Below, piece by piece: positions 5,497 to 40,089 of a stretch of 40,089 bases of DNA (positions within the stretch are counted from its first letter, which is position 1; each line of letters opens with the position of its first letter). Location of the stretch: positions 1-40,089 of the forward strand of contig CAYJJT010000004.1 in NCBI GenBank assembly GCA_964370575.1, given 5' to 3'. The notes under the pieces are model-generated. The model had not been told where the DNA came from and ran no database searches. It worked only from the letters and a program-made list of their open reading frames with translations. The stretch is from an uncultured Muribaculaceae bacterium. Lineage in GTDB: Bacteria; Bacillota_I; Bacilli_A; RF39; UBA660. A program made the translations under genes and the position numbers.

Positions 5497-5532
5497 ATAA
5501 ATAGATAAAGATAAGAAAGGTTGAAAATTTTT

Positions 5533-5668
5533 ATTGAGCGCATGGACAACATAGTTGTTGACGAGGATAGTAGTTATCGATTCATCAGCGGATGCTACTA
5601 CGGTTAATTATCGTTACACATATAACAAAAAGTAAAATATTAAATTACTACAAAATATATGTGAATTT
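5533..5668 (+). ncRNA. glmS ribozyme: glmS ribozyme (GlcN6P-dependent self-cleaving riboswitch)
   Basis: The hallmark core A|GCGC...GGACAAC-AUA-GUUGUU-GACGAGGAU-AGUAG-UUAUCGA...CAGCGGAUGCUACUACGG matches my memory of the Bacillus glmS ribozyme nearly string for string. A P4-like pairing CACATATA (5617-5624) / TATATGTG (5656-5663) is present. The element lies directly upstream of glmS. The predicted cleavage site is between A5537 and G5538. Confidence 0.88.
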
Positions 5669-5681
5669 ATAGGAGGCTTAT

Positions 5682-14250: not shown

Positions 14251-14278
14251 AAAAAGAATATTACAATATTCTTTTTTT
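14250..14278. terminator. Bidirectional terminator
   Basis: AAAAAGAATATT pairs with AATATTCTTTTT around the loop ACA. It is flanked by A and T runs and lies between convergent stops. Confidence 0.75.
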
Positions 14279-15456: not shown

Positions 15457-15513
15457 TTTTCACCACATTTAAATTATATTAACATAATAATTATTATGTT
15501 TCAATATATAGTT

Positions 15514-16746: not shown

Positions 16747-16798
16747 AATATCACCTAATATTAATTTAACATATAATGGATAATACAGCAATTTATCA

Positions 16799-17875
16799 TC
16801 AGTAAATTGGAGTTAATGATCCAACAGTAATTAGGGGAGTATTAGTGATGTAATTGATAAATGCAACGTCACCGTTAGTTAAAATAACAGGTTTTGCATC
16901 TAATATTAATTTATCATTTTCATATATTTCAATATTATGAATAACTGCTTTCCCATCAATATATCCGCGAATCCATTTAGCCTCATTATTAGCAAATAAG
17001 TAAAGTTCATAAATACTATGCCATTCAGTATCATCGGGATCACTGTATAAAACGTCGTTTAAATATAAACCATTCTTACTAATTTCTGCTTTTATAACTT
17101 TATTGCTTGGAAAGCCAGTAGCTCCAAAGTTATAACTTATATCATTGAATTGTAGTAAATTTTCTTGGTTAATAGGTGATCCGTCATAAGAACCATACGC
17201 AATTCCAAACATTTGATTTTTAAAAGCTCTTCTAGAAGAAAATAACCAAACAGCTGTAGTTTTAGATTCAATTATTGTAAAATTTATAATTACTTTGGTG
17301 TTATTAGTTGGATATATACCAGTTTTCACATAAGAGTTAGTAGTAGTAGTTGCTCCAGCTAATGGAGTCGCCCCTTCAATACTCGGAATGTCGCTTGCTA
17401 ATACAAAATCAAATAATAAGTTAGAAATACCTGTTTGATTATTATAAAATGAACTTAGTGATAATTTAAAAGTAATTTCTTCACCGCTTTTTAATGTAGT
17501 TCCTAGTATTAAATTATCTATTCTGGTAGATAAATATTTATTTGTTACTAATATTTCTTTTAAACCATTATAAATATAATCATCATTTGTGTTATTTTTA
17601 ATAGTAATATCATAAGTGATAATACCACTAGTAGAAGTAATATTAGTATTAAAAGTTATTTTAGTATCTTCATAAGTAGTATTTGATATTTCATTTGAAA
17701 GATAGTTATTAGTTAAAGTAGCATTTATAATTTCCAATTTTTTATTTGGCATTATTTTTACATTACCACTTATATTAAGAGATGTATTTAGTGCAGAATA
17801 ACCTATACTCATTGTTGTTACAGAAAAAAAGAGAAAGTAAATAATAAAATAGTTTAACTTCTTGATAGTAATCAA
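16799..17875 (-). CDS. Secreted two-domain protein: an N-terminal TasA/camelysin-like module (paralogue of 34939 and 35581) plus a ~170-aa C-terminal beta-rich module
   Basis: The hydrophobic N-terminus is followed by 'SIGYSALNTSLNISGNVKI', which parallels 'SIGFAAFSTTLNINGAAQV' in ORF 35581. Shared motifs are 'ITYDITIKNNTNDDY' and 'GEEITFKLSL'. The stop is TGA. The start is uncertain. The TTG at 17875 abuts the SD-like AAGGGG with no spacer. An ATC at 17866 has a 9-nt spacer and would give 'MKKLNYF...'. Confidence 0.55.
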   Translation of the reverse strand: MITIKKLNYFIIYFLFFSVTTMSIGYSALNTSLNISGNVKIMPNKKLEIINATLTNNYLSNEISNTTYEDTKITFNTNITSTSGIITYDITIKNNTNDDYIYNGLKEILVTNKYLSTRIDNLILGTTLKSGEEITFKLSLSSFYNNQTGISNLLFDFVLASDIPSIEGATPLAGATTTTNSYVKTGIYPTNNTKVIINFTIIESKTTAVWLFSSRRAFKNQMFGIAYGSYDGSPINQENLLQFNDISYNFGATGFPSNKVIKAEISKNGLYLNDVLYSDPDDTEWHSIYELYLFANNEAKWIRGYIDGKAVIHNIEIYENDKLILDAKPVILTNGDVAFINYITNTPLITVGSLTPIY

Positions 17876-21530: not shown

Positions 21531-21559
21531 AAAAAGAAAACAATTAGTTTTCTTTTTTT
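21531..21559. terminator. Bidirectional terminator between the ABC operon and the arc/agu array
   Basis: AAAAGAAAAC pairs with GTTTTCTTTT around the loop AATTA, with flanking A and T runs. The arcC stop lies in the loop. Confidence 0.7.
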
Positions 21560-22473: not shown

Positions 22474-22498
22474 AATTTTTCCTTTCATTAATTAATAA

Positions 22499-22520
22499 AA
22501 AGAAGTAATAAAACTTCTTT
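22499..22520 (-). terminator. Intra-operon hairpin between aguA and arcC (possible partial terminator)
   Basis: On the minus strand, AAAGAAGT-TTTATT-ACTTCTTT is followed by TTATTAAT. Confidence 0.3.
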
Positions 22521-22527
22521 TTAAATT

Positions 22528-25004: not shown

Positions 25005-25017
25005 TTCAATACCTTCC

Positions 25018-26004
25018 TTAAATACCTAGTTTATCTTTACAAATTTTAACAGTTTCGTCACGTTTACCCATAAAGTATACTAATAAAGCTCTAATTGATG
25101 TTAATCTATTTTCTGCTTCATCAAATACAATTGAGTATTTTGAATCTATTACTTCATCAGTAACTTCTTCATTACGTGTAGCAGGTAAACAGTGCATAAA
25201 TTTAACTGTTGGCTCTGCTTTTTTTATCATGTCCATATCAACTTGATATTTAGGGTAGAATACATTCATTCTTTCTTCTTCTGATAATTCTGCTTCATAT
25301 AATCCATACCAAACATCAGTATAAATAAAGTCAGCATTTTTAATTGCTTCATCTTCATCCTCAGTAATTAAGAATGAACCTCCTGAAATTTTACAGTTTT
25401 CTTCAGCAATTTTTTGAAAATGTTCATTTAATTGGAATCCTTTAGGTCCGTACTGAACAAAGCTTCCTCCTAATTTAGTAACAATCATCATAAGTGATGC
25501 ACAAACTTGTGTAGCATCTCCTACGAATACAACTTTAATGTCTTCGAAATTTTTACCTTCTGGTAAATGTTCAAACATAGTTGTAACATCTCCTAATTCT
25601 TGAGTAGGGTGATTGTAGTCACTCATACCATTAATTACTGATATATCAGCATATTTAGCTAATTCAGCTACATTTTCATGCTTAGCAACACGTGCCATAA
25701 GTATATCTACTAATCTTGATAATACTTGCGCTGTATCACTCATTGATTCATGTGAACCAAGTTGTATTTGACCTGGGGCTAAATACTGAGCGTGTCCTCC
25801 TAGTTGTGTCATTGCTGTTTCAAATGAAACTCTTGTTCTTGTTGATGATTGCTCAAATATCATACCTAGAGTTTTGTGGTATAACACATTTAAATCATGC
25901 CCACTTTTTAAAGTTTTTTTAATTAGTAAACCTAATTTAACTAAATCAACCATTTCCTCTTTCGTAAAATTTTGAGTATCAATATAATCTTTTTTTCTTT
26001 CCAT
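25018..26004 (-). CDS. aguB: Putrescine carbamoyltransferase
   Basis: The track start is at 26037. The ATG at 26004 has AGGAGGA upstream and gives 'MERKKDY'. Transcarbamoylase motifs are '[10 protein letters not shown]', 'HPTQELGD' and 'HCLPATR'. The ornithine-binding SMG loop of OTCases is replaced by '[10 protein letters not shown]'. The gene lies in an agmatine deiminase context. Confidence 0.8.
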
Positions 26005-26084
26005 ATTATCTATCCTCCTATAATAAATATAGCACAATATTTTTTTGATTTCTAGTAATTAATATAAATTATGTAAAGTGAAAA

Positions 26085-27521
26085 TTAACTTAGTATCGTA
26101 GTAGCAATAGTAAGTATTAATATATTAACAAGTAGAATACATGCGATTACTTTTAGCACCCATTTTAACCAAGTTGTATATTGTACTTTTGCAAGTGCTA
26201 ATCCACCCATAATTGCTCCACAAGTAGGAGTAAATAAATTAACTAATCCATTAGCAGCAACATAAGTCATTATAGTAGCTTCAACATTGTATCCAACTTC
26301 ATGAGCAAGTGGTCCCATAATAGGTGCCGATAGACTCGCTAAACCACTACTAGATGGAACTAGTACTGATAAACCCATATGTATTAAATAGTTAAGTGGT
26401 GTAAATATAATTGGAGAGACATCTTTTAATAAATTTGCTGCATTAACAATTATATAACTACTTAAATGTGTTTCCATCATTAATACACTAGCACCACGAG
26501 CTACTGCAATAATAAGAATTACACTCATCATTTCACTAGCACCTTTAATAAAAGTTTTAACAATTATACCTTCATGCATTTTATTAACAATAGCAATTAT
26601 AATTCCACAAATTAAGAACCATAAAGAAGCATCATAGAACCACCATGTACCTAGTGGATTTCCTGTTAAGAAACTTGACCAGTTAAAGATATTAATATTA
26701 AATTCACTCCATGGTATAAATCCGATAATCATTACTAAAAATGATAGAGCAAACAATATTAATGTTAAAGTTTGTCTTTTAGTTAATTTTAAGTTTGATT
26801 CTACTTTCTCATTACTGAAATTTTTATTCATATCTTCTACTTCTTGTAGAGATAAGAACGTAGATCCCTTATCTTCAATTACTTTTTTAGCATATTTCAT
26901 AACGAAGTAAATACTAATAAGTAGAGTAGTAATCCACAGTATCAATCCAAGAACGATTATTATACCTTGATTAACTTCTATATTTTCAGGAAGTGCTGAT
27001 ATAGCAGCTCCGACAGCGAATGGATTTACAGTTGAACCAAGTACTCCAGAACCAGCTCCTAGTAAAACTATTGAACTTGCTACTAGTGTATCCATACCAG
27101 CAGCAACCATAACACCAGCTAATAAAGCGTAGAATATTACTGTTTCTTCAAGCATTCCATATGTAGTTCCTCCAATAGAGAATATAAACATAAGAATAGG
27201 AATTAACAATATTTCTTTTCCCTCTAATTTCGATATAAGGACTTTTATTCCTTTTTTAAATGCTCCTGTACGATTAACGATTGCTAAAAATCCTCCTAGT
27301 ACTAAAACAAATAAACATACATCAATCGCATTTTCGAACCCTAAGATAGGGGACATTAAAGTTGTAGCTAAATCTGCTTTGATAACACCAGTACCTTCTA
27401 CAACCATGCCATCTACTACTTCAGCACTTGGTAAAAAGTGAGTAGAAATGGCAAGAATAAATATGATTATAAATATGATTGAGAACGATGATAATAATTT
27501 TCTTTTTTTCTCTTTTGACAT
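26085..27521 (-). CDS. YfcC/DcuC-type polytopic carrier; putative arginine/ornithine exchanger (ArcE-like) by context
   Basis: Twelve or more hydrophobic segments. SD AGGAGGA. It lies immediately downstream of arcB. As I recall, carriers of this family occupy the transporter slot in some arc operons. Confidence 0.55.
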   Translation of the reverse strand: MSKEKKRKLLSSFSIIFIIIFILAISTHFLPSAEVVDGMVVEGTGVIKADLATTLMSPILGFENAIDVCLFVLVLGGFLAIVNRTGAFKKGIKVLISKLEGKEILLIPILMFIFSIGGTTYGMLEETVIFYALLAGVMVAAGMDTLVASSIVLLGAGSGVLGSTVNPFAVGAAISALPENIEVNQGIIIVLGLILWITTLLISIYFVMKYAKKVIEDKGSTFLSLQEVEDMNKNFSNEKVESNLKLTKRQTLTLILFALSFLVMIIGFIPWSEFNINIFNWSSFLTGNPLGTWWFYDASLWFLICGIIIAIVNKMHEGIIVKTFIKGASEMMSVILIIAVARGASVLMMETHLSSYIIVNAANLLKDVSPIIFTPLNYLIHMGLSVLVPSSSGLASLSAPIMGPLAHEVGYNVEATIMTYVAANGLVNLFTPTCGAIMGGLALAKVQYTTWLKWVLKVIACILLVNILILTIATTILS

Positions 27522-27530
27522 AAATTCCTC

Positions 27531-28517
27531 CTACTTAAGCGTTGCATACATTACAGCTTTAATTGTGTGTAATCTATTTTCTGCTTCATCAAATACTTTT
27601 GATTTGTTACTATTAAATACTTCATCAGTAACTTCCATAGCAGTGATATTAAATTTATCACTAATTTCTTTACCGATTTTGGTATTGATATCGTGAAATG
27701 CTGGTAAGCAATGTAAAAATATTGTAGTATCTTTTGTTTTATCCATCATTTCTTTATTGATTTGATATGGGTATAATTCTTTGATTCTACTTTCCCATAC
27801 ACTATCCGCTTCTCCCATTGAAACCCATACATCAGTACAAACTACATCTGCATCTTTGATTACTTCATCAATAGACTCAGTTAGTGTTATTGTAGAATTG
27901 TTGCTAGTGGCAATATTTTTACAAGTTTCAACAAGCTCGTTGCTTGGCCATAAATTACGTGGCGCTATTGTAGTAAAATTAATACCTAATTTAGCACATA
28001 CGGCCATGTAAGAATTACCCATATTATTTCTAGCATCACCAATAAAAACTAAATTTAATCCTTCTAATTTATTAAAGTTTTCTTTAACTGTTAATATATC
28101 CGCTAACATTTGAGTAGGGTGGAATTCATCAGTTAATCCATTCCAAACTGGAACAGTACTATTAATTGCTAGTTCCTCAACAATGTTCTGTCCGAATCCA
28201 CGATATTCAATTCCATCATACATACGTGATAATACTTTAGCAGTGTCGGCAATACTTTCTTTTTTCCCCATTTGAGATCCAGTAGGACCTAAGTAAGTAG
28301 TATGCATACCTAAATCATAAGCAGCAACTTCAAAAGCACATCTAGTTCTAGTAGAATCTTTTTCAAATATCAAAGCAATATTTTTTCCCATCAAACTAGC
28401 ATGATTAACACCTTCTTTTTTTAATTTTTTAAATTCTGCACTTAAATTAATTAAATATAATAATTCTTCTTTACTGAAATCTAATACTTTTAAAAAGTTT
28501 CGTCCTTGTAAATTCAT
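27531..28517 (-). CDS. arcB: Catabolic ornithine carbamoyltransferase
   Basis: Motifs are '[10 protein letters not shown]', 'FHPTQMLAD', the SMG loop '[10 protein letters not shown]' and 'HCLPAFHD'. It lies 1 nt downstream of arcA. Confidence 0.9.
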
Positions 28518-28518
28518 T

Positions 28519-29757
28519 TTAATCCTCCCTTATTAGTGGCATACTCATACATCTAGGACCACCTCGACCACGCGATAATTCTGCACTTTCCATCTCTAGT
28601 ACTTTTATACCGTATTTTCTTAGTATTTCATTTGTTATGTTATTACGGTTATAACAAACAACAACTCCAGGACTAATGCATAATGTATTTGAACCATCAT
28701 TCCATTGTTCTCTTTGGGCACCGACTATATCACCACCTGCACATGGGATAAGTGTTATATTTCGTGATAAATATTTTTCTAAGATATGTTCTAAACTATC
28801 ATTAAGTTCAATAACATTTAGATCTTCAAATGTTGTAGGATCATCACCCTCTGTTATTTCAAATACTTTTAAAGTATCCATAATACCAGGATGATATGTA
28901 AATTTATCATAATCTATTTGTGTGAATACAGTATCTAAGTGCATAAATGCTCTAGTATTAGGAATAGAAAATGCTAAGATGGTTTTTATTTTTGATGTAG
29001 AATCAGAAAATATTCCACGCGCTAAATCATCAATTGCTTCAGCTGTTGTACGTTGTGATATTCCAACAGCAATTGTGTTTTCATTTAAAATTAAAATGTC
29101 ACCACCTTCGATTGAATAATATTTATAGCGGTCATAATATTTTTTTACTGTTCCCTGATAATCTGAATGATAATTGAAAATATATTCAGCATATATAGTT
29201 TCACGACAGCGAGTAATTGAATACATCCTATTTAAAGATATACCGTGTCCAATACTTGCAAAATTGTCTCTAGTAAAATATAAGTTAGGCATAGGATCAG
29301 TTAAAAAATCACCTTTTTCTTTCACTAAATCTACTAAAGATTTTTCTTTTTCTAGTTCTTCAAATTTTAATTCATCAATTTGAATACCTTCCATTGTTTT
29401 CAAAACTAATTGTTTTGTATCTTTAAATTTCATTAAATAATCTTTAACTAAATTTTTATATTTTTTGGTTTTTAAATTTGCTTCATTAATAAATTGAACA
29501 ATAAATCTTTCCTTTATTTCTGGATTAGACTCTAATACTTCAGTCATTAAATCTTCAAGATATACGACTTCAACACCATTATCTTTTAAAATAGCTGCAA
29601 ACTGATTATGTTCTTTGATCGCATCTTTTAAATATGGTATATCATCAAATAACAGTCGCTCTAATGAATTAGGCGTTAAATTTAATAATTCTTTACCTGG
29701 TTTGTGAAGTAATACTTTTTTTAGTGGTTTAATTTCACTGTTGACATTGATTTTCAT
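28519..29757 (-). CDS. arcA: Arginine deiminase
   Basis: SD GGAGGA. Motifs are '[18 protein letters not shown]', 'LLFDDIPYL' and the C-terminal catalytic Cys '[10 protein letters not shown]'. Confidence 0.92.
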
Positions 29758-32829: not shown

Positions 32830-34773
32830 ATGATACAAGAAATTAATTTGAAAAATATTTTAAAATTTACTTTACCGGTTATTGCAACGATGTTATTTAC
32901 ATCTATATATGTAATGGTAGATGGGGTGTTTGTAGCAAACTTTATTAATGCTACCGCTTTATCTGCTGTAAATATAGTATTTCCAATAGTATCAGTTGTT
33001 TTAGCAATAGGGTTAATGATAGGTACTGGAGGATCTGCAATATATTCTAAGCTACTAGGAGAAGGTAAAAATATTGAGGCTCGTGAAAAGTTTACATTAT
33101 TAAATATTTTTGCCTTTATAATGGGGTTAATAGTATTAGTTATAGTAAGATTAAATTTAGAAAATATTATATATTTTTTAGGTGGTAATGAGGAAAACTT
33201 TCATTATTGTTTTGAATATATGAATATATTATTATGGTTTATTCCATTATTAATATTTCAAGTTATTTTTCAAACAGCCTTTGTTTCTGCTAATAAACCA
33301 ATATATTCATTTGCAGCAATGTTACTTGGAGGTATAGCAAATATTGTTCTTGATTATTTATTCATGGGAATATTCAATATGGGAATAGAAGGAGCTGCCA
33401 TAGCAACTGGAATTGGATATGCCATACCATCGATTATAGGAGTAATATACTTTTCAACTAAAAGTAATAAATTAATTCATTTTGTTAAAACAAAGTTTGA
33501 ATTAAGTTCTATTATGCATGCTTGTGGAAATGGTGCTAGTGAAATGGTTACAAATTTATCAACTGCAATTACTACTTTTCTTTTTAATGCAGCAATGCTT
33601 AGATTGGTCGGTACTGATGGAGTTAGTGCGATTACTGTAATACTTTATTCCCAATTTTTTTTACAGGCAGTATTTATGGGGTATTCAATGGGAATTGCAC
33701 CTATAATAAGTTATAATTATGGAGAAAAAAACCATGTTAATTTACGTAAAATTTATACAACAAGTATAAAAATATTATTAGTTATTGCTTTAATAGCAAC
33801 ATCTTTATCTATTATTTTTGCTGATAATTTAGTAAGTATATTTGCAAGTGAGGGTACTAGAGTTTATGATTTAGCTTCAAGTGGATTATCTATATTTGCA
33901 ATCGGATTTTTATTTTCTGGTATTAATATATTCGCATCAGTTTTATTTACTTCATATTCTAATGGATTAATTTCATCTATTATATCAATAGCTCGTACTT
34001 TTGTATTTATAACATTATCATTATTATTTTTGCCTGAGTTAATAGGATTAAATGGAGTATGGTTAGCAGTTCCTATTAGTGAATTTTTAACAATAATAAT
34101 TGCAGTTATATTAATGAAAAAATATCAAGACAAATATTTATATAACGAGATTCAATTAAAAGAAATAGTAGAAGATCATAATATAATTACAATTACTCGT
34201 GAATTTGGTAGTGGGGGAAGAGAAATTGCTAAAAGACTTGCTGATAAACTGGGTTATCACTATTATGATGATGATATTGTTAAGTTGATTGCTAAGGAAA
34301 GTAAGTTAGATGAGAATTATATTATTAATAATAGTGAGGTTAAAAAGCATCAAAATCAGTATGCTTTTGCAACTAGTTTTAAAATTAAAAATGAATCTAC
34401 TAGTGAAAAATTACAATTAGCACAAGCTAAAGTTATTAGAGATTTAGCGACAAGAGGAAATGCTATATTTGTAGGGCGTTGTTCTGATTATATATTAAAA
34501 GATTATAATCCGCTTAAAATATTTGTTTATTCTTCTGATATAAATACACGAATAGATCGTTGCTATAATAAAGTTCCTAGCGATAAAATACATAGTCGTG
34601 ATATAATGAAAAACAAAATATTAAAAATTGATAAAGAACGTCTTAAATATTACGAAACTTATACTGGTGTTAAAAGAAATGATTTGAGTAATTATAATGT
34701 AATATTTGATACATCTAAAATTAATATTAAGTTAGCTGTTAATATGGTTGAACTTATTTATAAAAACAAATAG
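32830..34773 (+). CDS. Fusion protein: MATE-family efflux transporter (about 12 TM, ~440 aa) plus a C-terminal cytidylate-kinase-like (Cytidylate_kin2-type) domain
   Basis: The MATE-like N-terminal half includes 'LPVIATMLFTSIYVMVDGVFVA'. After the last TM comes 'IITITREFGSGGREIAKRLADKLGYHYYDDDIV', the characteristic opening of the cytidylate kinase-like family. There is no stop between the two halves. Confidence 0.7.
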   Translation: MIQEINLKNILKFTLPVIATMLFTSIYVMVDGVFVANFINATALSAVNIVFPIVSVVLAIGLMIGTGGSAIYSKLLGEGKNIEAREKFTLLNIFAFIMGLIVLVIVRLNLENIIYFLGGNEENFHYCFEYMNILLWFIPLLIFQVIFQTAFVSANKPIYSFAAMLLGGIANIVLDYLFMGIFNMGIEGAAIATGIGYAIPSIIGVIYFSTKSNKLIHFVKTKFELSSIMHACGNGASEMVTNLSTAITTFLFNAAMLRLVGTDGVSAITVILYSQFFLQAVFMGYSMGIAPIISYNYGEKNHVNLRKIYTTSIKILLVIALIATSLSIIFADNLVSIFASEGTRVYDLASSGLSIFAIGFLFSGINIFASVLFTSYSNGLISSIISIARTFVFITLSLLFLPELIGLNGVWLAVPISEFLTIIIAVILMKKYQDKYLYNEIQLKEIVEDHNIITITREFGSGGREIAKRLADKLGYHYYDDDIVKLIAKESKLDENYIINNSEVKKHQNQYAFATSFKIKNESTSEKLQLAQAKVIRDLATRGNAIFVGRCSDYILKDYNPLKIFVYSSDINTRIDRCYNKVPSDKIHSRDIMKNKILKIDKERLKYYETYTGVKRNDLSNYNVIFDTSKINIKLAVNMVELIYKNK

Positions 34774-34793
34774 AAAAACTATTTGTTTTTTTT
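34762..34793 (+). terminator. Rho-independent terminator
   Basis: AAAAACAAATAG pairs with CTATTTGTTTTT around the loop AAAAA, and the 3' arm runs into a T8 tract. Confidence 0.8.
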
Positions 34794-34875: not shown

Positions 34876-34905
34876 TTGTCAAGTAGTTTGTTGTTATGAT
34901 ATTAT
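34876..34905 (+). promoter_or_regulatory. Candidate promoter of the TasA-like/SipW operon
   Basis: TTGTCA (34876-34881), an 18-nt spacer, then TATTAT (34900-34905) preceded by TGA. Confidence 0.35.
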
Positions 34906-34938
34906 TAGGATAATAGTAGGGTATTAGAAAAGTAGGTA

Positions 34939-35526
34939 ATGGCTATGAATAATAAAAAATATATAATTATTTTAATATTAATTGCAATTATGATTATTAC
35001 TTTTAGCTTTGCATTAGTAAGTCAAGTATTAGTTATAAATGGTACTGCTTCTATAAATGCTGGCAATGGTTGGAATATTTCATTTGCTAATTTAGATGAA
35101 ATAGTTGTTAGTGACTCAACGATTGTTAAAGAACTATCTAAACCAAATATTGTTGAAGATACTACTGCTATAAATAATTTTGATGTAGAATTTATGTCTG
35201 GGCCTGCAAATTTTTATTACACATTTGATGTTAAAAATACAGGGAATTTAGATGCAAAGTTACATACAATTAATTTAGAAAGTATAAATTGTTATCCGTC
35301 AAATAAAAATGATGACATTGCTATTTATGAAGCTAAAGAAGTATGTAAGTACATTGATGTGGATTTGACTTATGAAGATGGAACACCTGTAAAACCAGGA
35401 GATACACTTGATAGTGGAGAATCCAAAAAGATGAGAATGAATGTAGAATATAATTCTAATGTTGCTATATCTAACAGTGTGGAAGTAGATAATATTGGAT
35501 TTAATCTAAATTACATTCAAGATTAA
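34939..35526 (+). CDS. TasA/camelysin-like secreted protein with a SipW-type signal, paralogue 1 (probable minor subunit)
   Basis: The N-terminal hydrophobic segment is followed by 'FALVSQVLVINGTASINA'. Motifs shared with ORF 35581 are 'YYTFDVKNTGNLDAKL', a Cys...Cys pair, 'LTYEDGTPV' and 'GESKKMRMNVEY'. It is also 195 aa. The SD is weak. Confidence 0.6.
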   Translation: MAMNNKKYIIILILIAIMIITFSFALVSQVLVINGTASINAGNGWNISFANLDEIVVSDSTIVKELSKPNIVEDTTAINNFDVEFMSGPANFYYTFDVKNTGNLDAKLHTINLESINCYPSNKNDDIAIYEAKEVCKYIDVDLTYEDGTPVKPGDTLDSGESKKMRMNVEYNSNVAISNSVEVDNIGFNLNYIQD

Positions 35527-35580
35527 TTAAGATATAATTCTTGTGAGAATTGTATATAAATATGTCTAGAGGAGGAAATT

Positions 35581-36168
35581 ATGAAGACAGAAAGACAAAC
35601 AAAAATTTTAGCTTTAATTGCTATCGTTATTGCAATTGGTGGACTATCAATTGGATTTGCAGCATTTAGTACAACATTAAATATAAATGGTGCAGCACAA
35701 GTAGAGGCTTCAAGTTGGGAAATTATATTTGAAAACTTAAGTGCAGAAACAGTTACAGGAACTGCAACAGAATTAGCAGCTCCAACTATTGCAACAGGAT
35801 CTACTACTATTAGTGGATTTGATGCTAGTTTAACAACTCCAGGTGATACTATTGTTTATAACTTTGATGTAACTAACAATGGTACATTTGATGCAGAAAT
35901 TGGAACTCTTACAGTAGCGGCTCCAACTTGTACAGGAACTGGTGCTACAGCAACTACTGATGCAGCAAATGTATGTGGTAACTTAACTTACACTTTAACT
36001 TATACTGATGGTACAGCAGTAGCTGTAAATGATACATTAGATGCTGGACAAACTAGAGGAATGAAAATTACTTTAACTTATGCAGCAGATACTACAGCAG
36101 CAGAACTACCAGCAGCTTTAGTTGAAGTAACAACTTTAGATGCTTCAATTATATACAATCAAGCATAG
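35581..36168 (+). CDS. TasA/camelysin-like secreted protein with a SipW-type signal, paralogue 2 (probable major, highly expressed subunit)
   Basis: It has a strong SD, GAGGAGG. The signal region is 'LSIGFAAFSTTLNINGAAQVEA'; compare TasA 'AAFND' and camelysin 'AYFSD'. Other motifs are 'VYNFDVTNNGTFDAEI', 'PTCTG...NVCGN' and 'GQTRGMKITLTY'. By hand count, 40-45% of residues are Ala, Thr or Gly. Confidence 0.6.
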   Translation: MKTERQTKILALIAIVIAIGGLSIGFAAFSTTLNINGAAQVEASSWEIIFENLSAETVTGTATELAAPTIATGSTTISGFDASLTTPGDTIVYNFDVTNNGTFDAEIGTLTVAAPTCTGTGATATTDAANVCGNLTYTLTYTDGTAVAVNDTLDAGQTRGMKITLTYAADTTAAELPAALVEVTTLDASIIYNQA

Positions 36169-36193
36169 TCATAGATAGAAAGTGATGTAAATA

Positions 36194-37333
36194 ATGAAAA
36201 TTAGTCATGTAAAATTATACGTGATACTAATACTTATTATTTCACTAAGTTTAACCAATGTATTTCTATTAAATTTAAATATTTTAAACACTATAAATTT
36301 AATATTGTTCTTAGCTATAGTATTAGTAAGAATATTACTTGGATATGAAAAAGTAAGAACTCGTTACTTAAAAGATTCAATAATAACTATCTTATTATAT
36401 ACTTTGAGTTATTATATTATAATATATTTAGCAGGATTATTTATAGGATATTTATCATCGGGGTATAATAATACTTTAGAGGGAATCTTTAAAAATATTA
36501 TACCTTATATGATATACATATTTTTAGTAGAAATACTTAGGTATTCTATAAATAAAAAGAGCAGTGAAAGCGCTCTTTTAATTATGTTTTCTACTATAAC
36601 TTTTATTTTAATAGATTCAATAATTTATGGTCGTCTAGGAAGTATATCAAGTAGTTCAGATATAATTGAATTTTTATCGATAGGTTTATTTCCGGCAATT
36701 AGTAGAAATATATTGTTAACTTATACGGTGACTAAAATAGGTTTTATTCCAAACATTATATATCGATATATAATGGAACTAACGGTGTTTATATTACCAA
36801 TTTCTCCTGATTTTGGAGAATATTTATATGCGATAATTATGTTAGTTTATCCATTAGGATTATTAGGAATATTTAGTATAACGTTTAATAAAAACAAAAA
36901 AAATAAAATTAGTTCAAGAGAAAATAAGTTGGCAAATAGAATAATTGTTACGACAATAGTTATAGTTATGCTAGTAACAGTTTCACTAACAAGTGGGATG
37001 TTTAAATATTATGCACTAAGCATAGGTTCTGGTTCGATGGAAAGTGAAATCGAAGTAGGTGATGTGGTAATTGTAAAAAAATTGTCCGAAAAAGAAATAT
37101 TAAAGTTAGAAGTTGGAGAGATTTTAGTTTTTAAACAAAAAAATATAGTTGTAGTTCATAGAATTGTAGAAATTGATAATACTAATAATGAATTAAGAAT
37201 TATCACTAAAGGTGATAATAATGAGGAAAATGATAATTGGATCGTAACGAACGAGGATATCATTGGAACAACTTCATTTAAAATTAAATATATAGGTTTA
37301 CCAACTATATGGCTTAATGAAGCAATTAGATAA
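36194..37333 (+). CDS. SipW/archaeal-type signal peptidase I fused to an N-terminal eight-TM domain of unknown function
   Basis: The C-terminal ~130 aa carry 'SIGSGSMESEIEVGDVVIV' (Ser nucleophile), 'VVHRIVEI' (His) and 'ITKGDNNEEND'. Before this come a Lys-rich loop and one TM anchor, and before those about 230 aa containing eight hydrophobic segments. Confidence 0.7.
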   Translation: MKISHVKLYVILILIISLSLTNVFLLNLNILNTINLILFLAIVLVRILLGYEKVRTRYLKDSIITILLYTLSYYIIIYLAGLFIGYLSSGYNNTLEGIFKNIIPYMIYIFLVEILRYSINKKSSESALLIMFSTITFILIDSIIYGRLGSISSSSDIIEFLSIGLFPAISRNILLTYTVTKIGFIPNIIYRYIMELTVFILPISPDFGEYLYAIIMLVYPLGLLGIFSITFNKNKKNKISSRENKLANRIIVTTIVIVMLVTVSLTSGMFKYYALSIGSGSMESEIEVGDVVIVKKLSEKEILKLEVGEILVFKQKNIVVVHRIVEIDNTNNELRIITKGDNNEENDNWIVTNEDIIGTTSFKIKYIGLPTIWLNEAIR

Positions 37334-37344
37334 GAGGTGTAAAA

Positions 37345-38469
37345 ATGTCTAAGAAAATCAAATATGAGGGGAAAGATAAATCATTTGAAGTGCCTAAAAG
37401 AAGAAGAAAATATAAACGTGGTGCAGTATTGTTTTTTTCAATATTAGCATTTATGATTTCTTTAATATTAGGAACAATAGCATTAGTTAATGGTTATACT
37501 TTTGAAGATAAATCTAACGATGTTACATACTCTGAAATTGGTTCTTCTAATTACAAAGTATATTTAAAAGAGAATAGCTATTTTGAACAAGCATATCTTG
37601 GAGAAGATATGGCTTATATATCTGATATAATTAATTCTATTAATGTTAGTTTTAACTACAGTTATAAATCTAGTGATATTCTAAATTATAATTATGACAA
37701 TAAAGTTACAGCAACATTATATATAAATGATAGTGTTACTGATAAAGAATTATTTAAAGAAGAAGAAATTCTTTTAGAATTAGAAAAAGAAGAATTATCA
37801 AGTGATAAATTTAACTTTAATAAAGATGTTGATATTGATTATGATAAATATAATGAAAAAGTAAATGCTTTGAAAAAAGAATATGGTGTTCAAATTGAAA
37901 GTAAATTAGTTGTAACTATGGATATCGCAACAACAGGAAGTGATTTAGATGAAAATGCTGAATTTTCTAAAAATAATTCTATGAGTGTAGAAATTCCATT
38001 AAGTGAACAAACTATTAATATTAATAGTATTAATAAAAATATTTTAGAAGAAGGAACATTAAATGTTACTAATGAAATGGGAATATCTAATTTATTTTTA
38101 GTTATATTATCTGCAATATTCTATGGTATAGCGACACTTTATTTAGCAAAATGTATAAAAACATATATTCAAATTATTAACAAAAGAGATTTATATCAAT
38201 TAACTATTAAAAAATATTTACGTGAGTATGATCGTATGATTGTAACAAGTTCACAACCTGATTTAAATGAGAATGTGTTTGAAAATAAAATAAGAGTAAT
38301 GTCTATTGAAGAATTAATAGACGCTCATGATTCAACAGGTTCACCAATTGTATATTATGAAGTTATTCCAAATGAAAAAAGTTACTTTATAATTATTAAT
38401 GGACTTACATTGTATAAACTAACAATTTCTAGAGCTTATTTAGAACAACATAAAAATGGTAAAAATTAA
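37345..38469 (+). CDS. Two-TM membrane protein (DUF5305-like by memory), partner of SipW-type peptidases
   Basis: SD AGAGGTG. It has a basic N-terminus 'KRRRKYKRG', then TM1, a ~200-aa ecto-domain, TM2 'LFLVILSAIFYGIATLYLA', and a ~110-aa cytoplasmic tail. Confidence 0.45.
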   Translation: MSKKIKYEGKDKSFEVPKRRRKYKRGAVLFFSILAFMISLILGTIALVNGYTFEDKSNDVTYSEIGSSNYKVYLKENSYFEQAYLGEDMAYISDIINSINVSFNYSYKSSDILNYNYDNKVTATLYINDSVTDKELFKEEEILLELEKEELSSDKFNFNKDVDIDYDKYNEKVNALKKEYGVQIESKLVVTMDIATTGSDLDENAEFSKNNSMSVEIPLSEQTININSINKNILEEGTLNVTNEMGISNLFLVILSAIFYGIATLYLAKCIKTYIQIINKRDLYQLTIKKYLREYDRMIVTSSQPDLNENVFENKIRVMSIEELIDAHDSTGSPIVYYEVIPNEKSYFIIINGLTLYKLTISRAYLEQHKNGKN

Positions 38470-38485
38470 TTTACCATTTTTTTAT
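38458..38485 (+). terminator. Possible terminator of the SipW operon, embedded in the 3' end of the convergent gene
   Basis: GGTAAA pairs with TTTACC around the loop AATTAA, followed by ATTTTTTTATTT. Confidence 0.4.
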
Positions 38486-39563
38486 TTGCAAATTTTTCTA
38501 TTAATATTCTATTAGTATGTAACCGCTTTATATCATTATTTATAGCTATAGCTTTTTCTACACAAATTAAAGAATTTTTATAATCTTTTTTTTCAAAATA
38601 GCATATAGATAATAAATCATAAATGGTATGATCCCAACTAAATATCTCATTAATATAACTTTTTGTTCTGTTCCTAATCTTTAGTGCTTCATAACATAAA
38701 TTATAAACATCTTTATAGTTTCCTAATTTATACTCCATTAATGCTAACTCTACATAAGGATCTCTTAAATATGGTGCTATATTAATAGCTTTATTTAACC
38801 ACATTCTTGCTTCATCGTATCTATTTAGGTTTTGGTAGTTTCTTGCTATAAAGCGCATTGATGCACATTTTTCATCATTCCAATTTGCGCTTTCTAAATT
38901 AATATGTTTAATTAATGTATCGATAGATTTATTATATTTATTATAGTACATATATTCTCTACCTAAATAATGCATATTGCGATCATTTGTAGGATCTTCA
39001 CTTATAGCTAATTCTAGTAGAGGTAAATAACTACTTCGTGATTTTTCTTTATCTGGGTAGTGATTTAAAATTATGTTATCACATGTATTAAATAATTCAT
39101 TGTTATTAATATTTTTTAAAACTTCGTGAACTGGATATATCCATTTATAATCATGTCTGCTATGAGTTTTTTCATAATAAAAAGTAACTAATGGTTTATT
39201 ATTTTTATCGATGGCCCAATTAAAAGTATATCTTAATCGGTTTACATTCTGATTCCATGCATTTTCCATTTTTTCACGCCAACCTTGTTCAAATACTTCA
39301 TCTAAATCAGAACAAACACAAATATCACAATTGTCTGGCACTAAACTTAAAGATTCATTTCTTGCTACATCAAATCTCCAAGGAAATATAATTTTGCTAT
39401 GAACATTAACACCGTTTTCTTTAAGTAAATTTATAGTATCATCAGTACTACCAGTATCTAGAACATAAATTTCATCTGCTTCTTGCATTGATTCACACCA
39501 TCTATTTACAAATTTTTCTTCATTTTTACAAATTGCGTAAACACAAACTTTGTACTTATTCAT
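38466..39563 (-). CDS. Family-2-type glycosyltransferase with C-terminal TPR-like repeats
   Basis: The N-terminal motifs are 'VCVYAICKNEEKF', 'VLDTGSTDDT' and 'CSDLDE' (DxD). The C-terminal half consists of helical repeats such as 'YDEARMWLNKAINIAPYLRDPYVELALMEYKLGNY'. Confidence 0.7.
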   Translation of the reverse strand: MNKYKVCVYAICKNEEKFVNRWCESMQEADEIYVLDTGSTDDTINLLKENGVNVHSKIIFPWRFDVARNESLSLVPDNCDICVCSDLDEVFEQGWREKMENAWNQNVNRLRYTFNWAIDKNNKPLVTFYYEKTHSRHDYKWIYPVHEVLKNINNNELFNTCDNIILNHYPDKEKSRSSYLPLLELAISEDPTNDRNMHYLGREYMYYNKYNKSIDTLIKHINLESANWNDEKCASMRFIARNYQNLNRYDEARMWLNKAINIAPYLRDPYVELALMEYKLGNYKDVYNLCYEALKIRNRTKSYINEIFSWDHTIYDLLSICYFEKKDYKNSLICVEKAIAINNDIKRLHTNRILIEKFANKKMVN

Positions 39564-40089
39564 TAATTAATCCTTACAATAGTTATATTTGCAGAAAATC
39601 CATTATCTAAAACTGTAGTTATACTTGATGGTGTACTATTTCTAATTTCGATTTGTTGATTTGCGGTAGCAGTAAAAATTACACTACCAGAAATGTCAGC
39701 TCCAGAAGTATTATTAATAGTAGTTCCAGAGTTAGCTGATGCAATGTAAGTAGCATTAGTAACATCATAAACTCCAAGTGAAATTATATTTGGAGAAGAG
39801 GTAGCACTAGTTACAGCAGCATCCCAATTAACTAAATATTGCCCTGCATTAAGGATAGTGAATATCCCTGAATTATATGTAATGTTATTAATTTCTGGTG
39901 TAGTAGTAAAAACTAATGGTGAATCAGTTGTTACGGTAGCTGCTGTAGTAAGTGTAGCGAAGGCATAAGTATTAAAACCAGCTGATCCAGTTGGTCCAGT
40001 TGGTCCGGTTGGCCCAGTAGGCCCAGTAGGTCCAGTAGCACCATCAATTCCAGTTGGTCCAGTAGGTCCGGTTGGCCCAGTAGCACCGT
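39563..40089 (-). CDS. Collagen-like (Gly-Pro-Thr repeat) surface protein with a BclA-type globular C-terminal domain; N-terminus lies beyond the window
   Basis: This ORF is not in the track because it runs off the window. I translated it by hand and found no stop in frame from 40087 down to the TAA at 39565-39563. It reads '...[46 protein letters not shown]...[10 protein letters not shown]'. Its stop overlaps the start of the glycosyltransferase gene (TAATG). Confidence 0.8.
39986..40089 (-). repeat. 9-bp periodic coding repeat (GGN-CCN-ACN, Gly-Pro-Thr)
   Basis: Tandem units tccagttgg / tccggttgg / cccagtagg appear on the plus strand. They are interrupted once by G-I-D-G-A-T. Confidence 0.85.

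What the first reader, a model, noticed from the sequence alone, without database searches (positions are those of the whole stretch)
34876..38469. Self-contained SipW-type fibre operon: two TasA/camelysin-like paralogues, a fused signal peptidase and a two-TM partner
Seen in the sequence:
- Four co-directional, tightly spaced genes sit behind a strong terminator and a candidate promoter.
- Genes 1 and 2 are both 195 aa. Each has a hydrophobic N-terminus followed by F-A-(A/L)-(F/V)-S-x-x-L-x-I-N-G. This resembles the SipW-cognate signals of TasA (AAFND) and camelysin (AYFSD).
- Gene 3 carries the Ser/His motifs of the archaeal/ER-type S26 peptidase, the family that includes SipW.
- Gene 4 has an in-TM-out-TM-in topology with substantial domains on both sides of the membrane.

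Established knowledge: in B. subtilis, tapA-sipW-tasA builds donor-strand-exchanged biofilm fibres, and related TasA-like fibres exist in archaea.

Inference: this operon has no TapA-like gene. Instead it has a peptidase fusion and a bitopic-plus partner. This suggests a distinct assembly or anchoring machinery for a TasA-superfamily filament. To my knowledge that machinery has not been characterised.
Basis: partly seen in the sequence, partly recalled or inferred. Interest (0 to 1): 0.75.

Follow-up and report, generated by a model that had tools for sequence, protein, structure and literature searches.

The report
AbpX-like secreted fibre operon
This is a four-gene operon from a low-GC gut Firmicute that most likely builds extracellular protein fibres of the TasA/AbpX kind with its own multi-spanning signal peptidase and a helper protein; papers from 2025-2026 already described this layout, so it is a new member of a known kind.

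Summary
Four tightly spaced + strand genes lie at 34939-38469. Two encode 195-aa paralogues with an F-A-(A/L)-(F/V)-S-x-x-L-x-I-N-G signal end. The third is a Sec11/SipW-type signal peptidase fused behind an 8-helix membrane domain. The fourth is a two-TM DUF5305 protein.

The small proteins are not TasA/camelysin proper. Pfam PF12389 is sub-threshold, and hhalign to TasA gives 7 %. They match archaeal AbpX instead: hhalign 94.9 %, and AbpX is the only PDB sequence hit.

A 2026 preprint on AbpX describes the same locus type: major and minor subunits, a roughly 10-TM signal peptidase I and a DUF5305 'accessory'.

Synteny is strong. Of 78 related loci, 61 carry subunit(s), then the fused peptidase, then DUF5305.

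Likely mechanism (inferred): Sec export, cleavage at G-F-A|A-F-S, then donor-strand polymerisation.

Differences from AbpX:
- The Ca-binding acidic residue at mature position 4 is absent.
- No LPXTG motif was found (SLH was not checked).
- A third substrate, a 358-aa candidate tip subunit, is encoded 17 kb away, so the operon is not fully self-contained.

Verdict: new member of a known kind, moderate interest.

The parts
34762..34793 (+). Hairpin (12 bp of A-U and G-U pairs with one G-C pair, 5-nt loop) plus U-run. Probable intrinsic terminator of the upstream MatE/cytidylate-kinase-like gene; it insulates the operon.
   Evidence: -9.6 kcal/mol, z -3.57, 0 of 200 shuffles as stable; sequence. 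Not flagged by the G+C-dependent scan.
34876..34905 (+). Promoter-like site: TTGTCA, 18 nt, TATTAT, with an extended -10 TG.
   Evidence: 10/12 matches. Such sites are at chance frequency here (43 found, 41.3 expected), so only its position supports it.
34939..35526 (+). g1: 195-aa AbpX-like minor subunit candidate. Signal peptide is residues 1-25 with predicted cleavage FSFA|LVSQVLVINGTASI. The mature protein is 170 aa, pI 4.20, 15.3 % D+E, with 2 Cys (118, 136).
   Evidence: jackhmmer E 2.6e-49 to the g2 family; 33 % identity to g2; the gene at position -2 is divergent across loci.
35510..35538 (+). Second promoter-like site (ATTACA, 17 nt, TATAAT) in the g1-g2 gap, ahead of a GGAGG ribosome-binding site. 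It may give g2 its own transcription.
   Evidence: a consensus match only.
35581..36168 (+). g2: 195-aa AbpX-like major subunit candidate. Signal peptide is residues 1-27, cleavage G-F-A|A-F-S, donor strand AFSTTLNINGAAQVE. The mature protein is 168 aa, pI 4.05, 46 % Ala+Thr+Gly, with Cys117 and Cys132.
   Evidence: AbpX 9sj2 is the only PDB family hit; AF2 pLDDT 91.8, beta core; hhalign 94.9 % to AbpX; the gene next to the peptidase is the conserved one, 45-86 % identity; GGAGG RBS.
36194..36898 (+). g3 N-terminal domain: eight membrane helices (residues 3-232) of unknown function. E113 and R116 in helix 4 are near-universally conserved, along with N172, P202 and P205.
   Evidence: model pLDDT 85.8; 657 clusters; 116 of 146 listed are 350 aa or longer, so fused. 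No Pfam family. Only a weak Rce1 fold hit (E 0.5).
36899..37333 (+). g3 C-terminal part: anchor helix (residues 242-267) plus a Sec11/SipW-type signal peptidase I domain with catalytic S281, H322, D341 and D347.
   Evidence: TIGR02228, 4.1e-25; SEC11C/A 5e-23, motifs aligned; Foldseek top hit 7p2p_A.
37345..38469 (+). g4: DUF5305 protein. Layout: basic cytoplasmic N-terminus, TM about 27-49, about 200-aa external domain, TM about 250-270, about 100-aa cytoplasmic domain. Proposed signal-peptidase accessory subunit (TafG-like).
   Evidence: PF17231, 8.7e-18; 65/78 loci, always directly after the peptidase except L004 and L064. Literature.
16799..17875 (-). Unlinked third paralogue (358 aa). It has the same signal end (SIGYS|ALNTSLNISG), a subunit-like domain (about residues 1-165) and an unknown 190-aa C-terminal domain. 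Candidate tip or adhesin subunit and third substrate of g3.
   Evidence: E 5e-12 and 9e-11 to the family; its N-domain is closest to the large protein encoded right after DUF5305 in L011 and L010.

Best explanation
The locus encodes an AbpX-like (TasA-superfamily) extracellular fibre system of an uncultured, walled, very low-GC gut Bacillota lineage.

Proposed mechanism, step by step:
1. g2 (major subunit), g1 (divergent minor subunit) and the unlinked 358-aa paralogue are made with Sec-type signal anchors. This is shown by sequence.
2. The dedicated Sec11/SipW-type peptidase g3 has a Ser281/His322/Asp341/Asp347 active site. Nine membrane helices hold it on the outer face of the membrane. It cuts after the conserved small-x-Ala site (G-F-A|A-F-S). 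It probably works as a complex with the two-TM DUF5305 protein g4. The cleavage site and the partnership are inferred from conservation, synteny and published gene fusions.
3. Cleavage frees an amphipathic N-terminal strand (A-F-S-x-T-L-x-I-x-G-x-A-x-V). This strand inserts into the open beta-sandwich of the next subunit by donor-strand complementation, giving fibres or a matrix. This is inferred by homology with AbpX and TasA.
4. Large paralogues with variable C-terminal domains act as tip or adhesin subunits. They follow DUF5305 in relatives and are unlinked here. This is inferred.

The 8-helix N-terminal module of g3 is obligatorily fused and carries a conserved Glu/Arg pair. Its role is unknown.
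For: Homology of the subunits:
- The profile of 61 homologues hits only AbpX in the PDB (9sj2 at E 0.019, 9rhp).
- hhalign to P. abyssi AbpX gives 94.9 %, E 4.5e-8, over 156 columns. It aligns GLTYA|QWSETLSLSA with IGFA|AFSTTLNINGA.
- The AF2 model (pLDDT 91.8) is a beta-sandwich with a detached N-terminal segment.
- Its best Foldseek hits are donor-strand fibre subunits: CfaB, ABP 7ueg, TasA fibre 8aur, FimG and Saci_0406 7pnb.

AbpX-like properties: mature size is 168-170 aa against 163 for AbpX. pI is 4.05-4.20 against 4.05. Each has two Cys.

Cleavage site: it obeys the -3/-1 rule in 99 % of 115 members, and hydrophobic positions alternate after it.

Peptidase: TIGR02228 at 4.1e-25; SEC11A/C at 5e-23 with the SGSM, HR and GDNN motifs aligned; catalytic residues conserved at 99-100 %.

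Accessory protein: DUF5305 at 8.7e-18.

Synteny: 63/78 loci have the fused peptidase, 65/78 have DUF5305 and 61/78 have both, in the order subunits, peptidase, DUF5305. 39/78 have a large subunit-domain protein, carrying ALK_LTK_GRD, Listeria-Bacteroides repeat or ConA-like C-domains.

Major-subunit assignment for g2: GGAGG RBS, extreme composition, and conservation of the gene next to the peptidase.

Literature: the same architecture is described for abpX and tafi loci.
Against: - No polymer was modelled or observed; multimer modelling was not available. Donor-strand assembly therefore rests on homology.
- Structural matches are weak (Foldseek E of 5e-3 or higher, TM 0.31-0.38). Sequence links to AbpX are remote (16 % identity).
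- The acidic residue at mature position 4, reported as critical for Ca-mediated complementation in AbpX, is Thr in g2 and Gln in g1. It is acidic in only about 5 % of the family.
- The model has 9 membrane helices plus a short C-terminal helix, not the ten reported.
- Homology of g3 to the AbpX-associated peptidases could not be tested directly, because no sequences were on hand.
- No LPXTG motif was found (0 of 42 large paralogues) and SLH domains were not searched for, so attachment to the cell is unexplained.
Confidence: 0.75

Rival explanations
1. One reading: the two small proteins are TasA/camelysin (Peptidase_M73) paralogues and the operon is a variant of tapA-sipW-tasA.
For: A sub-threshold PF12389 match on the PGD...N.G motif (E 0.041). 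A TasA-like signal end (W-A|A-F-N-D against F-A|A-F-S-T). The TasA fibre 8aur is among the top Foldseek hits.
Against: PF12389 scores 14.1 bits against a cut-off of 22.5 for g2, and g1 has no hit. hhalign to verified TasA gives 7 %. TasA is not hit by the family profile in the PDB, while AbpX is. The SipW equivalog model scores 65 bits against a cut-off of 190. There is no TapA. The peptidase architecture and DUF5305 are features of abpX and tafi loci, not of tasA loci.
Confidence: 0.07
2. Same machinery but a spore-surface role. The fibres would be endospore- or exosporium-associated appendages made during sporulation (TasA was first described as spore coat-associated protein N), rather than a vegetative biofilm matrix.
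For: The operon abuts a GT2-TPR glycosyltransferase and a collagen-like BclA_C-type gene (38466-40087, minus strand). A Coat_F gene lies about 4 kb further on in the syntenic relative L006. The PDB names TasA 'Spore coat-associated protein N'.
Against: The flanks are not conserved. In L001/L011 the operon sits between a tRNA synthetase and a sigma-70 gene. In L004 it sits among G5 and MatE genes. The BclA_C match is below the Pfam cut-off (31 bits against 38). No sporulation promoter was tested.
Confidence: 0.12
3. The subunits polymerise by a BsaA-type 'exchange and lock'. Donor-strand insertion is followed by an intermolecular Asn-Lys isopeptide bond, giving covalent, heat-stable polymers.
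For: C. perfringens BsaA is a SipW-linked TasA-family protein and does this (PMC11580942). g2 has an Asn in the donor strand (LNING). One of its only two basic residues is a Lys in a core strand (GMKITLTY), which recurs in close relatives.
Against: The donor-strand Asn at position 36 is present in only 22/115 members. No N-E-K triad was demonstrated. The cited paper says only a subset of the family forms such bonds.
Confidence: 0.08
4. The small proteins are monomeric secreted or wall-associated beta-sandwich proteins (DUF11/CARDB-like). They merely need a special signal peptidase and no fibre is built.
For: Weak DUF11 and B_ant_repeat matches (E 0.75 and 0.016). No polymer has been observed. 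No anchor or usher-like component was identified.
Against: The most conserved segment of the family is the 15-residue amphipathic strand just after the cleavage site, which is the hallmark of donor strands. There are multiple paralogues per locus, up to 6. Large paralogues have variable distal domains. Homology is to a protein whose fibre structure is solved.
Confidence: 0.06

Closest known systems
AbpX loci of Thermoproteota, Bacillota and Chloroflexota (P. abyssi AbpX, PDB 9SJ2/9RHP; bioRxiv 10.64898/2026.01.04.697558)
   Same: The subunit is homologous by profile (94.9 %) and similar in size, pI and Cys count. The signal end and donor strand follow the same pattern (A|x-aromatic-S-x-T-L-x-[LI]). 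There are AbpX-like minor subunits, a dedicated signal peptidase I with about ten membrane helices, a DUF5305 accessory protein, and variable tip proteins.
   Different: The acidic residue at mature position 4 (Ca2+ site) is not conserved. The disulfide positions differ (C117-C132 flank an inserted helix). No LPXTG motif was found (SLH was not checked), and no histidine-kinase or c-di-GMP genes lie in the genes flanking the operon in the window. The host lineage is uncultured gut 'Bacilli/Tenericutes-like' MAGs, which are not among the bacterial examples listed in the preprint's Table S3. The candidate tip subunit is unlinked. The model gives 9 membrane helices, not 10.
Haloarchaeal Tat-fimbriae (tafi): TafA/TafE pilins, TafD signal peptidase, TafG (DUF5305) (PMC11821415, PMC12337348)
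   Same: Donor-strand fibre subunits are encoded with a dedicated multi-TM S26 peptidase and an adjacent DUF5305 protein, alongside variable structural proteins.
   Different: Tafi subunits use Tat signals. TafD has 4 TM helices with the catalytic domain at the N-terminus and an extra C-terminal domain. Here the signals are Sec-type and the catalytic domain is C-terminal, behind an 8-helix module.
B. subtilis tapA-sipW-tasA (PMC9674648, PMC10151520)
   Same: A dedicated archaeal/ER-type signal peptidase, a cleavage site with aromatic-Ala|Ala-Phe, and donor-strand-exchanged matrix fibres.
   Different: TasA is Peptidase_M73 and larger (234 aa mature). SipW is a small two-TM enzyme. TapA is present. 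There is no DUF5305 and no polytopic peptidase.
C. perfringens sipW-bsaA-bsaB-bsaC (PMC7395162, PMC11580942)
   Same: A Bacillota operon with a SipW-type peptidase and two TasA-superfamily paralogues, major and minor.
   Different: BsaA polymers are locked by isopeptide bonds and their export involves type IV pilus proteins. There is a vWA protein (BsaC) instead of DUF5305, and an ordinary SipW.
Eukaryotic signal peptidase complex (SEC11A/C with SPCS1-3; PDB 7P2P/7P2Q)
   Same: The catalytic domain of g3 is clearly homologous (5e-23), with the same Ser/His/Asp residues. A membrane-spanning partner with an external beta domain is proposed to assist it.
   Different: No homology between DUF5305 and the SPCS subunits turned up in the Pfam and PDB sequence searches run on g4. 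The substrate range here is apparently restricted to a few fibre subunits.

Membership tests
TasA superfamily (donor-strand biomatrix or fibre subunits) | Detectable homology to a structurally characterised member | tested here: met
   hhalign of A1 against AbpX: 94.9 %, E 4.5e-8, 156 columns. Profile against PDB: only AbpX, E 0.019. Foldseek top hits include 7ueg, 8aur and 7pnb, but weakly.
TasA superfamily (donor-strand biomatrix or fibre subunits) | Conserved amphipathic N-terminal strand directly after a signal peptidase I site | tested here: met
   Position -3 is small and -1 is Ala in about 99 % of members. F/L/I/A/V alternate at mature positions 2, 6, 8, 12 and 14 in 115 members.
TasA superfamily (donor-strand biomatrix or fibre subunits) | Polymerisation by donor-strand complementation | not testable with these tools
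   Only monomer prediction was available. The monomer model leaves residues 30-47 unstructured, which is compatible but not decisive.
AbpX clade | Low pI (about 4) and about 15 % acidic residues | tested here: met
   g1 has pI 4.20 and 15.3 % D+E. g2 has pI 4.05 and 10.7 %. AbpX has pI 4.05 and 14.7 %. g2 is somewhat low in acidic residues.
AbpX clade | Aromatic residue at mature position 2 | tested here: met
   g2 has Phe. The position is aromatic in 89/115 members. g1 has Val, and the position -2 paralogues usually have an aliphatic residue.
AbpX clade | Acidic residue at mature position 4 (Ca2+-mediated complementation) | tested here: not met
   g2 has Thr and g1 has Gln. Glu occurs in 6/115 members. 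The preprint itself says Ca coordination is frequent but not universal.
AbpX clade | Dedicated signal peptidase I with about ten TM helices | tested here: inconclusive
   The model shows 8 + 1 membrane helices plus a 10-residue C-terminal helix. The architecture matches the description, but no AbpX-locus peptidase sequence was available for direct comparison.
AbpX clade | DUF5305 accessory gene in the locus | tested here: met
   PF17231 at 65 bits against a cut-off of 29. It is adjacent in 65/78 related loci.
Peptidase_M73 / camelysin / TasA proper (PF12389) | Score above the Pfam gathering threshold | tested here: not met
   g2 scores 14.1 bits against 22.5 over 27 residues only. g1 has no hit.
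Peptidase_M73 / camelysin / TasA proper (PF12389) | Profile similarity to B. subtilis TasA | tested here: not met
   hhalign gives 7 % over 22 columns. The TasA sequence used was verified against 8aur_A.
Archaeal/ER-type signal peptidase I (TIGR02228; Sec11/SipW type) | Model score above cut-off, and a Ser/His (not Ser/Lys) active site with the conserved Asp residues | tested here: met
   88.5 bits against 51.85. S281, H322, D341 and D347 are conserved at 99-100 %. They align to the SEC11A/C motifs.
Bacillus SipW equivalog (NF046067) | Equivalog cut-off | tested here: not met
   65.4 bits against a cut-off of 190. It is SipW-like in kind but not an orthologue.
DUF5305 (PF17231; TafG-like) | Pfam threshold and a two-TM topology with external and cytoplasmic domains | tested here: met
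   (8.7e-18, profile positions 2-215 of 217). Hydropathy segments at about 27-49 and 250-270 after a KRRRKYKR N-terminus.
Type IV pilin / class III signal | G|F-T-L-I-E motif, with the hydrophobic helix after the cleavage site and a prepilin peptidase | tested here: not met
   The hydrophobic segment precedes the G-F-A site. There is no Glu at +5. The adjacent peptidase is S26, not A24.

The most novel reading that the evidence does not exclude
The obligatorily fused 8-helix module of the peptidase carries a universally conserved Glu113/Arg116 pair in helix 4 and gives a faint Rce1/CPBP-like fold signal. It may be a second functional unit rather than a passive anchor. It could be a degenerate intramembrane-protease-like domain that captures or disposes of the cleaved signal anchor. 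Alternatively it could be the membrane platform that holds the growing fibre and couples cleavage to polymerisation, which would replace the missing TapA or sortase anchoring. If so, this gut-Bacilli clade would assemble AbpX-type fibres without Ca2+, because the position-4 acidic residue is absent, through a new membrane-embedded assembly enzyme.
Probability: 0.12. Interest if true: 0.7.

Novelty: new member of a known kind. Interest (0 to 1): 0.38.

Why it matters
- It extends the recently defined AbpX branch of TasA-like matrix fibres to a broad set of uncultured, very low-GC gut bacteria. These MAGs are labelled Bacilli, Tenericutes, 'Mycoplasma sp. CAG:877', Erysipelotrichaceae and Ca. 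Faecisoma.
- In these genomes the loci carry 1-6 subunit genes and highly variable lectin-like or repeat 'tip' proteins. Such fibres could plausibly mediate aggregation or adhesion in the gut.
- The locus is compact, with four genes and three recognisable substrates. That makes it a convenient system for testing what DUF5305 and the polytopic peptidase module actually do, which the published work has only inferred.
- The kind of system is already described, so the gain is incremental.

Tried and rejected
- The genome scan with the 61-sequence alignment A1 failed because no stretch was conserved enough. It was repeated with 12 close sequences.
- Type IV pilin reading of 'G-F-A': rejected on topology and on the peptidase type.
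- Identity of the g3 N-domain. Pfam on 58 members gave nothing consistent; one of 58 hit Rce1-like at E 0.07. The profile against PDB gave nothing. Foldseek gave only Rce1 4cad_C at E 0.5, TM 0.32/0.44. No conserved His was found. A CPBP protease assignment is therefore not supported.
- An exhaustive search with the N-domain looked for free-standing or differently fused versions. There are essentially none. The single 812-aa hit (P0248) is a metallophosphatase chimera, probably a gene-call artefact.
- LPXTG/sortase signals in the last 60 residues of 42 large paralogues: none.
- g4 against PDB sequences: no hit, so no sequence link to the SPCS subunits.
- Rfam scan for a regulatory RNA ahead of the operon: only a glmS ribozyme elsewhere in the window.
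- Homologues of the 358-aa paralogue: only four, all unlinked to the operon in sister MAGs.
- The record titles 'uncultured Muribaculaceae' for the closest MAGs conflict with the gene content: a PASTA-domain PBP, Coat_F, a BclA-like gene and 25 % GC. They were not trusted for taxonomy.

Full report
OBSERVATION

The region holds four + strand ORFs: g1 34939-35526 (195 aa), g2 35581-36168 (195 aa), g3 36194-37333 (379 aa) and g4 37345-38469 (374 aa). The gaps between them are 54, 25 and 11 nt.

Upstream, the stop of a MatE/cytidylate-kinase-like gene is followed by a 12-bp hairpin of A-U and G-U pairs with one G-C pair and a U-run (34762-34793). Its energy is -9.6 kcal/mol with z -3.6. The G+C-based scan did not flag it. 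The candidate promoter at 34876-34905 is a 10/12 match with an extended -10. Such matches occur at chance frequency in this 25 % G+C DNA: 43 found against 41 expected. g2 has a GGAGG ribosome-binding site and a second promoter-like site in the g1-g2 gap.

g3 carries GSGSM (Ser281) and VHRI (His322). g4 has two hydrophobic spans after a KRRRKYKR N-terminus. The only caveats concern the words 'strong terminator' and the statistical weight of the promoter.

WHAT THE FOUR PROTEINS ARE

Small proteins and the family databases. g1 has no Pfam or NCBIfam match. g2 has only sub-threshold hits: Peptidase_M73 at E 0.041 (14.1 bits against a cut-off of 22.5, over 27 residues), and DUF11/B_ant_repeat on the same PGD...N.G motif.

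The family. g2 has about 120 homologues, nearly all 190-220 aa. All are unnamed, from 'Bacilli', 'Oscillospiraceae' and similar MAGs. g1 belongs to the same family (33 % identity to g2; jackhmmer E 2.6e-49).

Link to AbpX rather than TasA.
- A profile of 61 members hits only one protein family among all PDB sequences. That family is AbpX of Pyrodictium abyssi (9sj2 at E 0.019, and 9rhp).
- I took the AbpX sequence from the preprint's supplement. hhalign then gives 94.9 % probability, E 4.5e-8, over 156 columns. The alignment starts in the signal peptide and places ...GLTYA|QWSETLSLSA opposite ...IGFA|AFSTTLNINGA.
- The same profile against B. subtilis TasA gives 7 %.

Structure. The AF2 model of g2 (pLDDT 91.8) has a signal helix, an unstructured segment at residues 30-47 and a beta-sandwich with one inserted helix. 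Its Foldseek matches are weak, with E of 5e-3 or higher. The top ranks are nonetheless dominated by donor-strand fibre subunits: CfaB, archaeal bundling pilus 7ueg, TasA fibre 8aur, FimG and Saci_0406 7pnb.

Peptidase. g3 residues 251-378 match archaeal-type signal peptidase I (TIGR02228, 4.1e-25, above cut-off). They do not reach the Bacillus SipW equivalog cut-off. The family profile hits human SEC11C/A at 5e-23 with the SGSM, VHR and KGDNN motifs aligned. S281, H322, D341 and D347 are conserved in 99-100 % of 116 aligned sequences (115 family representatives plus the window protein). Their spacing matches what I recall for yeast Sec11 (Ser44, His83, Asp103, Asp109).

Peptidase N-terminal module. 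The AF2 model (pLDDT 85.8) shows eight membrane helices (residues 3-232). These are followed by the peptidase's own anchor helix (242-267), the catalytic beta domain and a short terminal helix.

Accessory protein. g4 is DUF5305 (PF17231, 8.7e-18, nearly full profile length).

CONSERVATION AND CONTEXT

Scan of genomes. A scan of 185,579 species genomes returned 79 loci. I called ORFs in them and searched with the window proteins. Of 78 non-redundant loci:
- 63 have the fused N-domain plus peptidase;
- 65 have DUF5305;
- 61 have both;
- nearly all follow the order: subunit gene(s) in 1-6 copies, then peptidase, then DUF5305.

Subunit roles. The gene directly before the peptidase is the conserved one (45-86 % identity to g2, with GFAAFS). 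The gene before that (g1 type) diverges fast and usually has an aliphatic residue at mature position 2. g2 also has a strong RBS and an extreme composition (46 % Ala+Thr+Gly). Together these make g2 the likely major subunit and g1 a minor one.

Large paralogues. In 39 loci a large protein (more than 330 aa) with the same N-terminal signal and subunit domain is present. It usually follows DUF5305. Its C-terminal parts vary: ALK/LTK glycine-rich domain, Listeria-Bacteroides repeats, ConA-like lectin, or no known domain. This fits a tip or adhesin role. None has an LPXTG motif.

Third paralogue in the window. The window lacks such a gene next to the operon. The same search found a third family member at 16799-17875 on the minus strand: 358 aa, signal end SIGYS|ALNTSLNISG, a subunit-like domain and an unknown 190-aa C-domain. 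Its N-domain is most similar to the post-DUF5305 proteins of L011 and L010. Its four homologues are likewise unlinked to the operon in sister MAGs. The operon is therefore not entirely self-contained.

The peptidase N-domain family. An exhaustive search of 1.84 billion representatives with the g3 N-domain found 657 clusters. Of the 146 listed, 116 are 350 aa or longer with the domain at residues 1-245. The module therefore occurs essentially only fused to this peptidase. Glu113 (99 %) and Arg116 (100 %) in helix 4 are its most conserved residues. No His is conserved.

Host organism. The host has a PASTA-domain PBP, FtsW/RodA and MraY. It also has a glmS ribozyme. I read it as a walled Bacillota.

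WHAT IS ALREADY KNOWN

A full-text search for DUF5305 found four papers.

The tafi papers show that haloarchaeal donor-strand fimbriae need the adjacent multi-TM signal peptidase TafD. They propose that TafG (DUF5305) assists it, and they note natural peptidase-DUF5305 fusions.

The AbpX preprint of January 2026 solves the AbpX fibril, which polymerises by donor-strand complementation with Ca2+ at the interface. It defines an AbpX clade in Thermoproteota, Bacillota and Chloroflexota. It also states that abpX loci typically encode AbpX-like minor subunits, tip proteins, a signal peptidase I 'possessing ten transmembrane helices' and a DUF5305 'accessory' protein.

The window's operon matches that description gene for gene. 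Still, neither DUF5305 nor the polytopic module has been tested experimentally.

MECHANISM

Shown by sequence:
- Sec-type signal anchors;
- a small-x-Ala cleavage site conserved in about 99 % of members;
- an amphipathic strand just after the site that is the best conserved part of the family;
- an intact Ser/His/Asp peptidase placed outside the membrane by an odd number of helices;
- obligatory co-occurrence with DUF5305.

Inferred:
- g3, probably with g4, cleaves g1, g2 and the 358-aa protein at A|A or A|L.
- The freed strand complements the next subunit's sandwich to form fibres.
- The large paralogue caps or decorates the fibre.

Confidence in this overall reading is about 0.75.

DIFFERENCES FROM AbpX

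- The acidic residue at mature position 4 is stated to be critical for Ca-mediated complementation in AbpX. Here it is Thr in g2 and Gln in g1, and it is acidic in only 6 of 115 members. Assembly may therefore not depend on Ca2+.
- The two Cys lie elsewhere (117 and 132, flanking the inserted helix).
- No LPXTG motif was found in the large paralogues (SLH was not checked), and no histidine-kinase or c-di-GMP genes lie in the genes flanking the operon in the window.
- The model has 9 membrane helices rather than 10.

RIVALS

Four rival readings were considered:
- Membership in TasA/camelysin proper. This fails three tests.
- A spore-surface role. It is suggested by the neighbouring GT2-TPR and collagen-like BclA_C-type genes and by Coat_F in the syntenic relative. 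It is weakened by non-conserved flanks.
- A BsaA-type isopeptide lock.
- Non-polymerising secreted proteins.

None of these is favoured.

VERDICT

The finding is real and largely correctly read at superfamily level. It is best filed as a new, MAG-borne member of the AbpX-type fibre systems (subunits, polytopic signal peptidase I, DUF5305), with some clade-specific features. Novelty: new member of a known kind. Interest is moderate (0.38).

The most novel reading not excluded is that the fused 8-helix Glu/Arg module is an active assembly or signal-anchor-handling unit. It rests only on conservation and a faint Rce1-like fold signal (E 0.5; 1 of 58 members). I give it about 12 %.

Noticed in passing
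window 16799-17875 (-): A third protein (358 aa) has the same SipW-type signal end (SIGYS|ALNTSLNISG) and a subunit-like N-domain plus an unknown 190-aa C-domain. The collection's gene call (P0209, 337 aa) starts at Met22 and so removes the signal. An AAGGGG box precedes the longer TTG ORF, and homologues keep the signal.
   Followed up: yes
window 14278-16791 (-): Two ORFs of 425 and 392 aa follow the 358-aa gene, 7 nt and 57 nt apart. They are extremely N/E/I/K-rich and acidic, with no signal peptide and no Pfam family. They lie in the lowest-GC stretch of the window (18 %). Their function is unknown and they are not conserved next to the homologues in sister MAGs.
   Followed up: partly
window 39568-40087 (-), cut by the window end; and 38466-39563 (-): A partial gene encodes collagen-like GPT triplet repeats followed by a BclA_C-like C-terminal domain (31 bits, below the cut-off of 38). 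It sits next to a GT2 glycosyltransferase with TPR repeats whose stop overlaps the g4 stop by 4 nt. This suggests an exosporium or hairy-nap type glycoprotein beside the fibre operon.
   Followed up: partly
window 36194-36898 (+), g3 residues 1-235: The 8-helix domain is found essentially only fused to this peptidase (657 clusters at 50 % identity). Glu113-x-x-Arg116 is conserved in 99-100 % of members. No Pfam family matches, and only a faint Rce1/CPBP-like signal was seen.
   Followed up: partly
window 5526-5673 (+): A glmS ribozyme (65.8 bits) lies directly upstream of glmS (5682-7424).
   Followed up: no
window 21544-29757 (-): A cluster for arginine and agmatine catabolism: arginine deiminase, two ornithine/putrescine carbamoyltransferases, agmatine-deiminase-type PAD_porph, carbamate kinase, an amino-acid permease and a DcuC-type carrier.
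   Followed up: no
L036, L038, L040, L041, L055, L066: Some relatives carry two complete subunit-peptidase-DUF5305 cassettes in one 12-kb locus (L036, L038). Others carry arrays of 3-6 tandem subunit paralogues before a single peptidase (L040, L055, L066). L041 has four tandem subunit paralogues and a large paralogue but no peptidase within the locus. This suggests rapid diversification of the structural genes.
   Followed up: no
L004/L005 (termite-gut 'Oscillospiraceae' MAG): The gene order differs: DUF5305, then the subunit, then the peptidase. The peptidase is split into 287-aa and 98-aa ORFs, probably by a frameshift. A 550-aa subunit-domain protein with RCC1 repeats follows.
   Followed up: no
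L007-L030 record titles: The closest relatives are deposited as 'uncultured Muribaculaceae bacterium' (Bacteroidota). Their gene content and 25 % G+C point to Bacillota, so the labels look wrong.
   Followed up: partly
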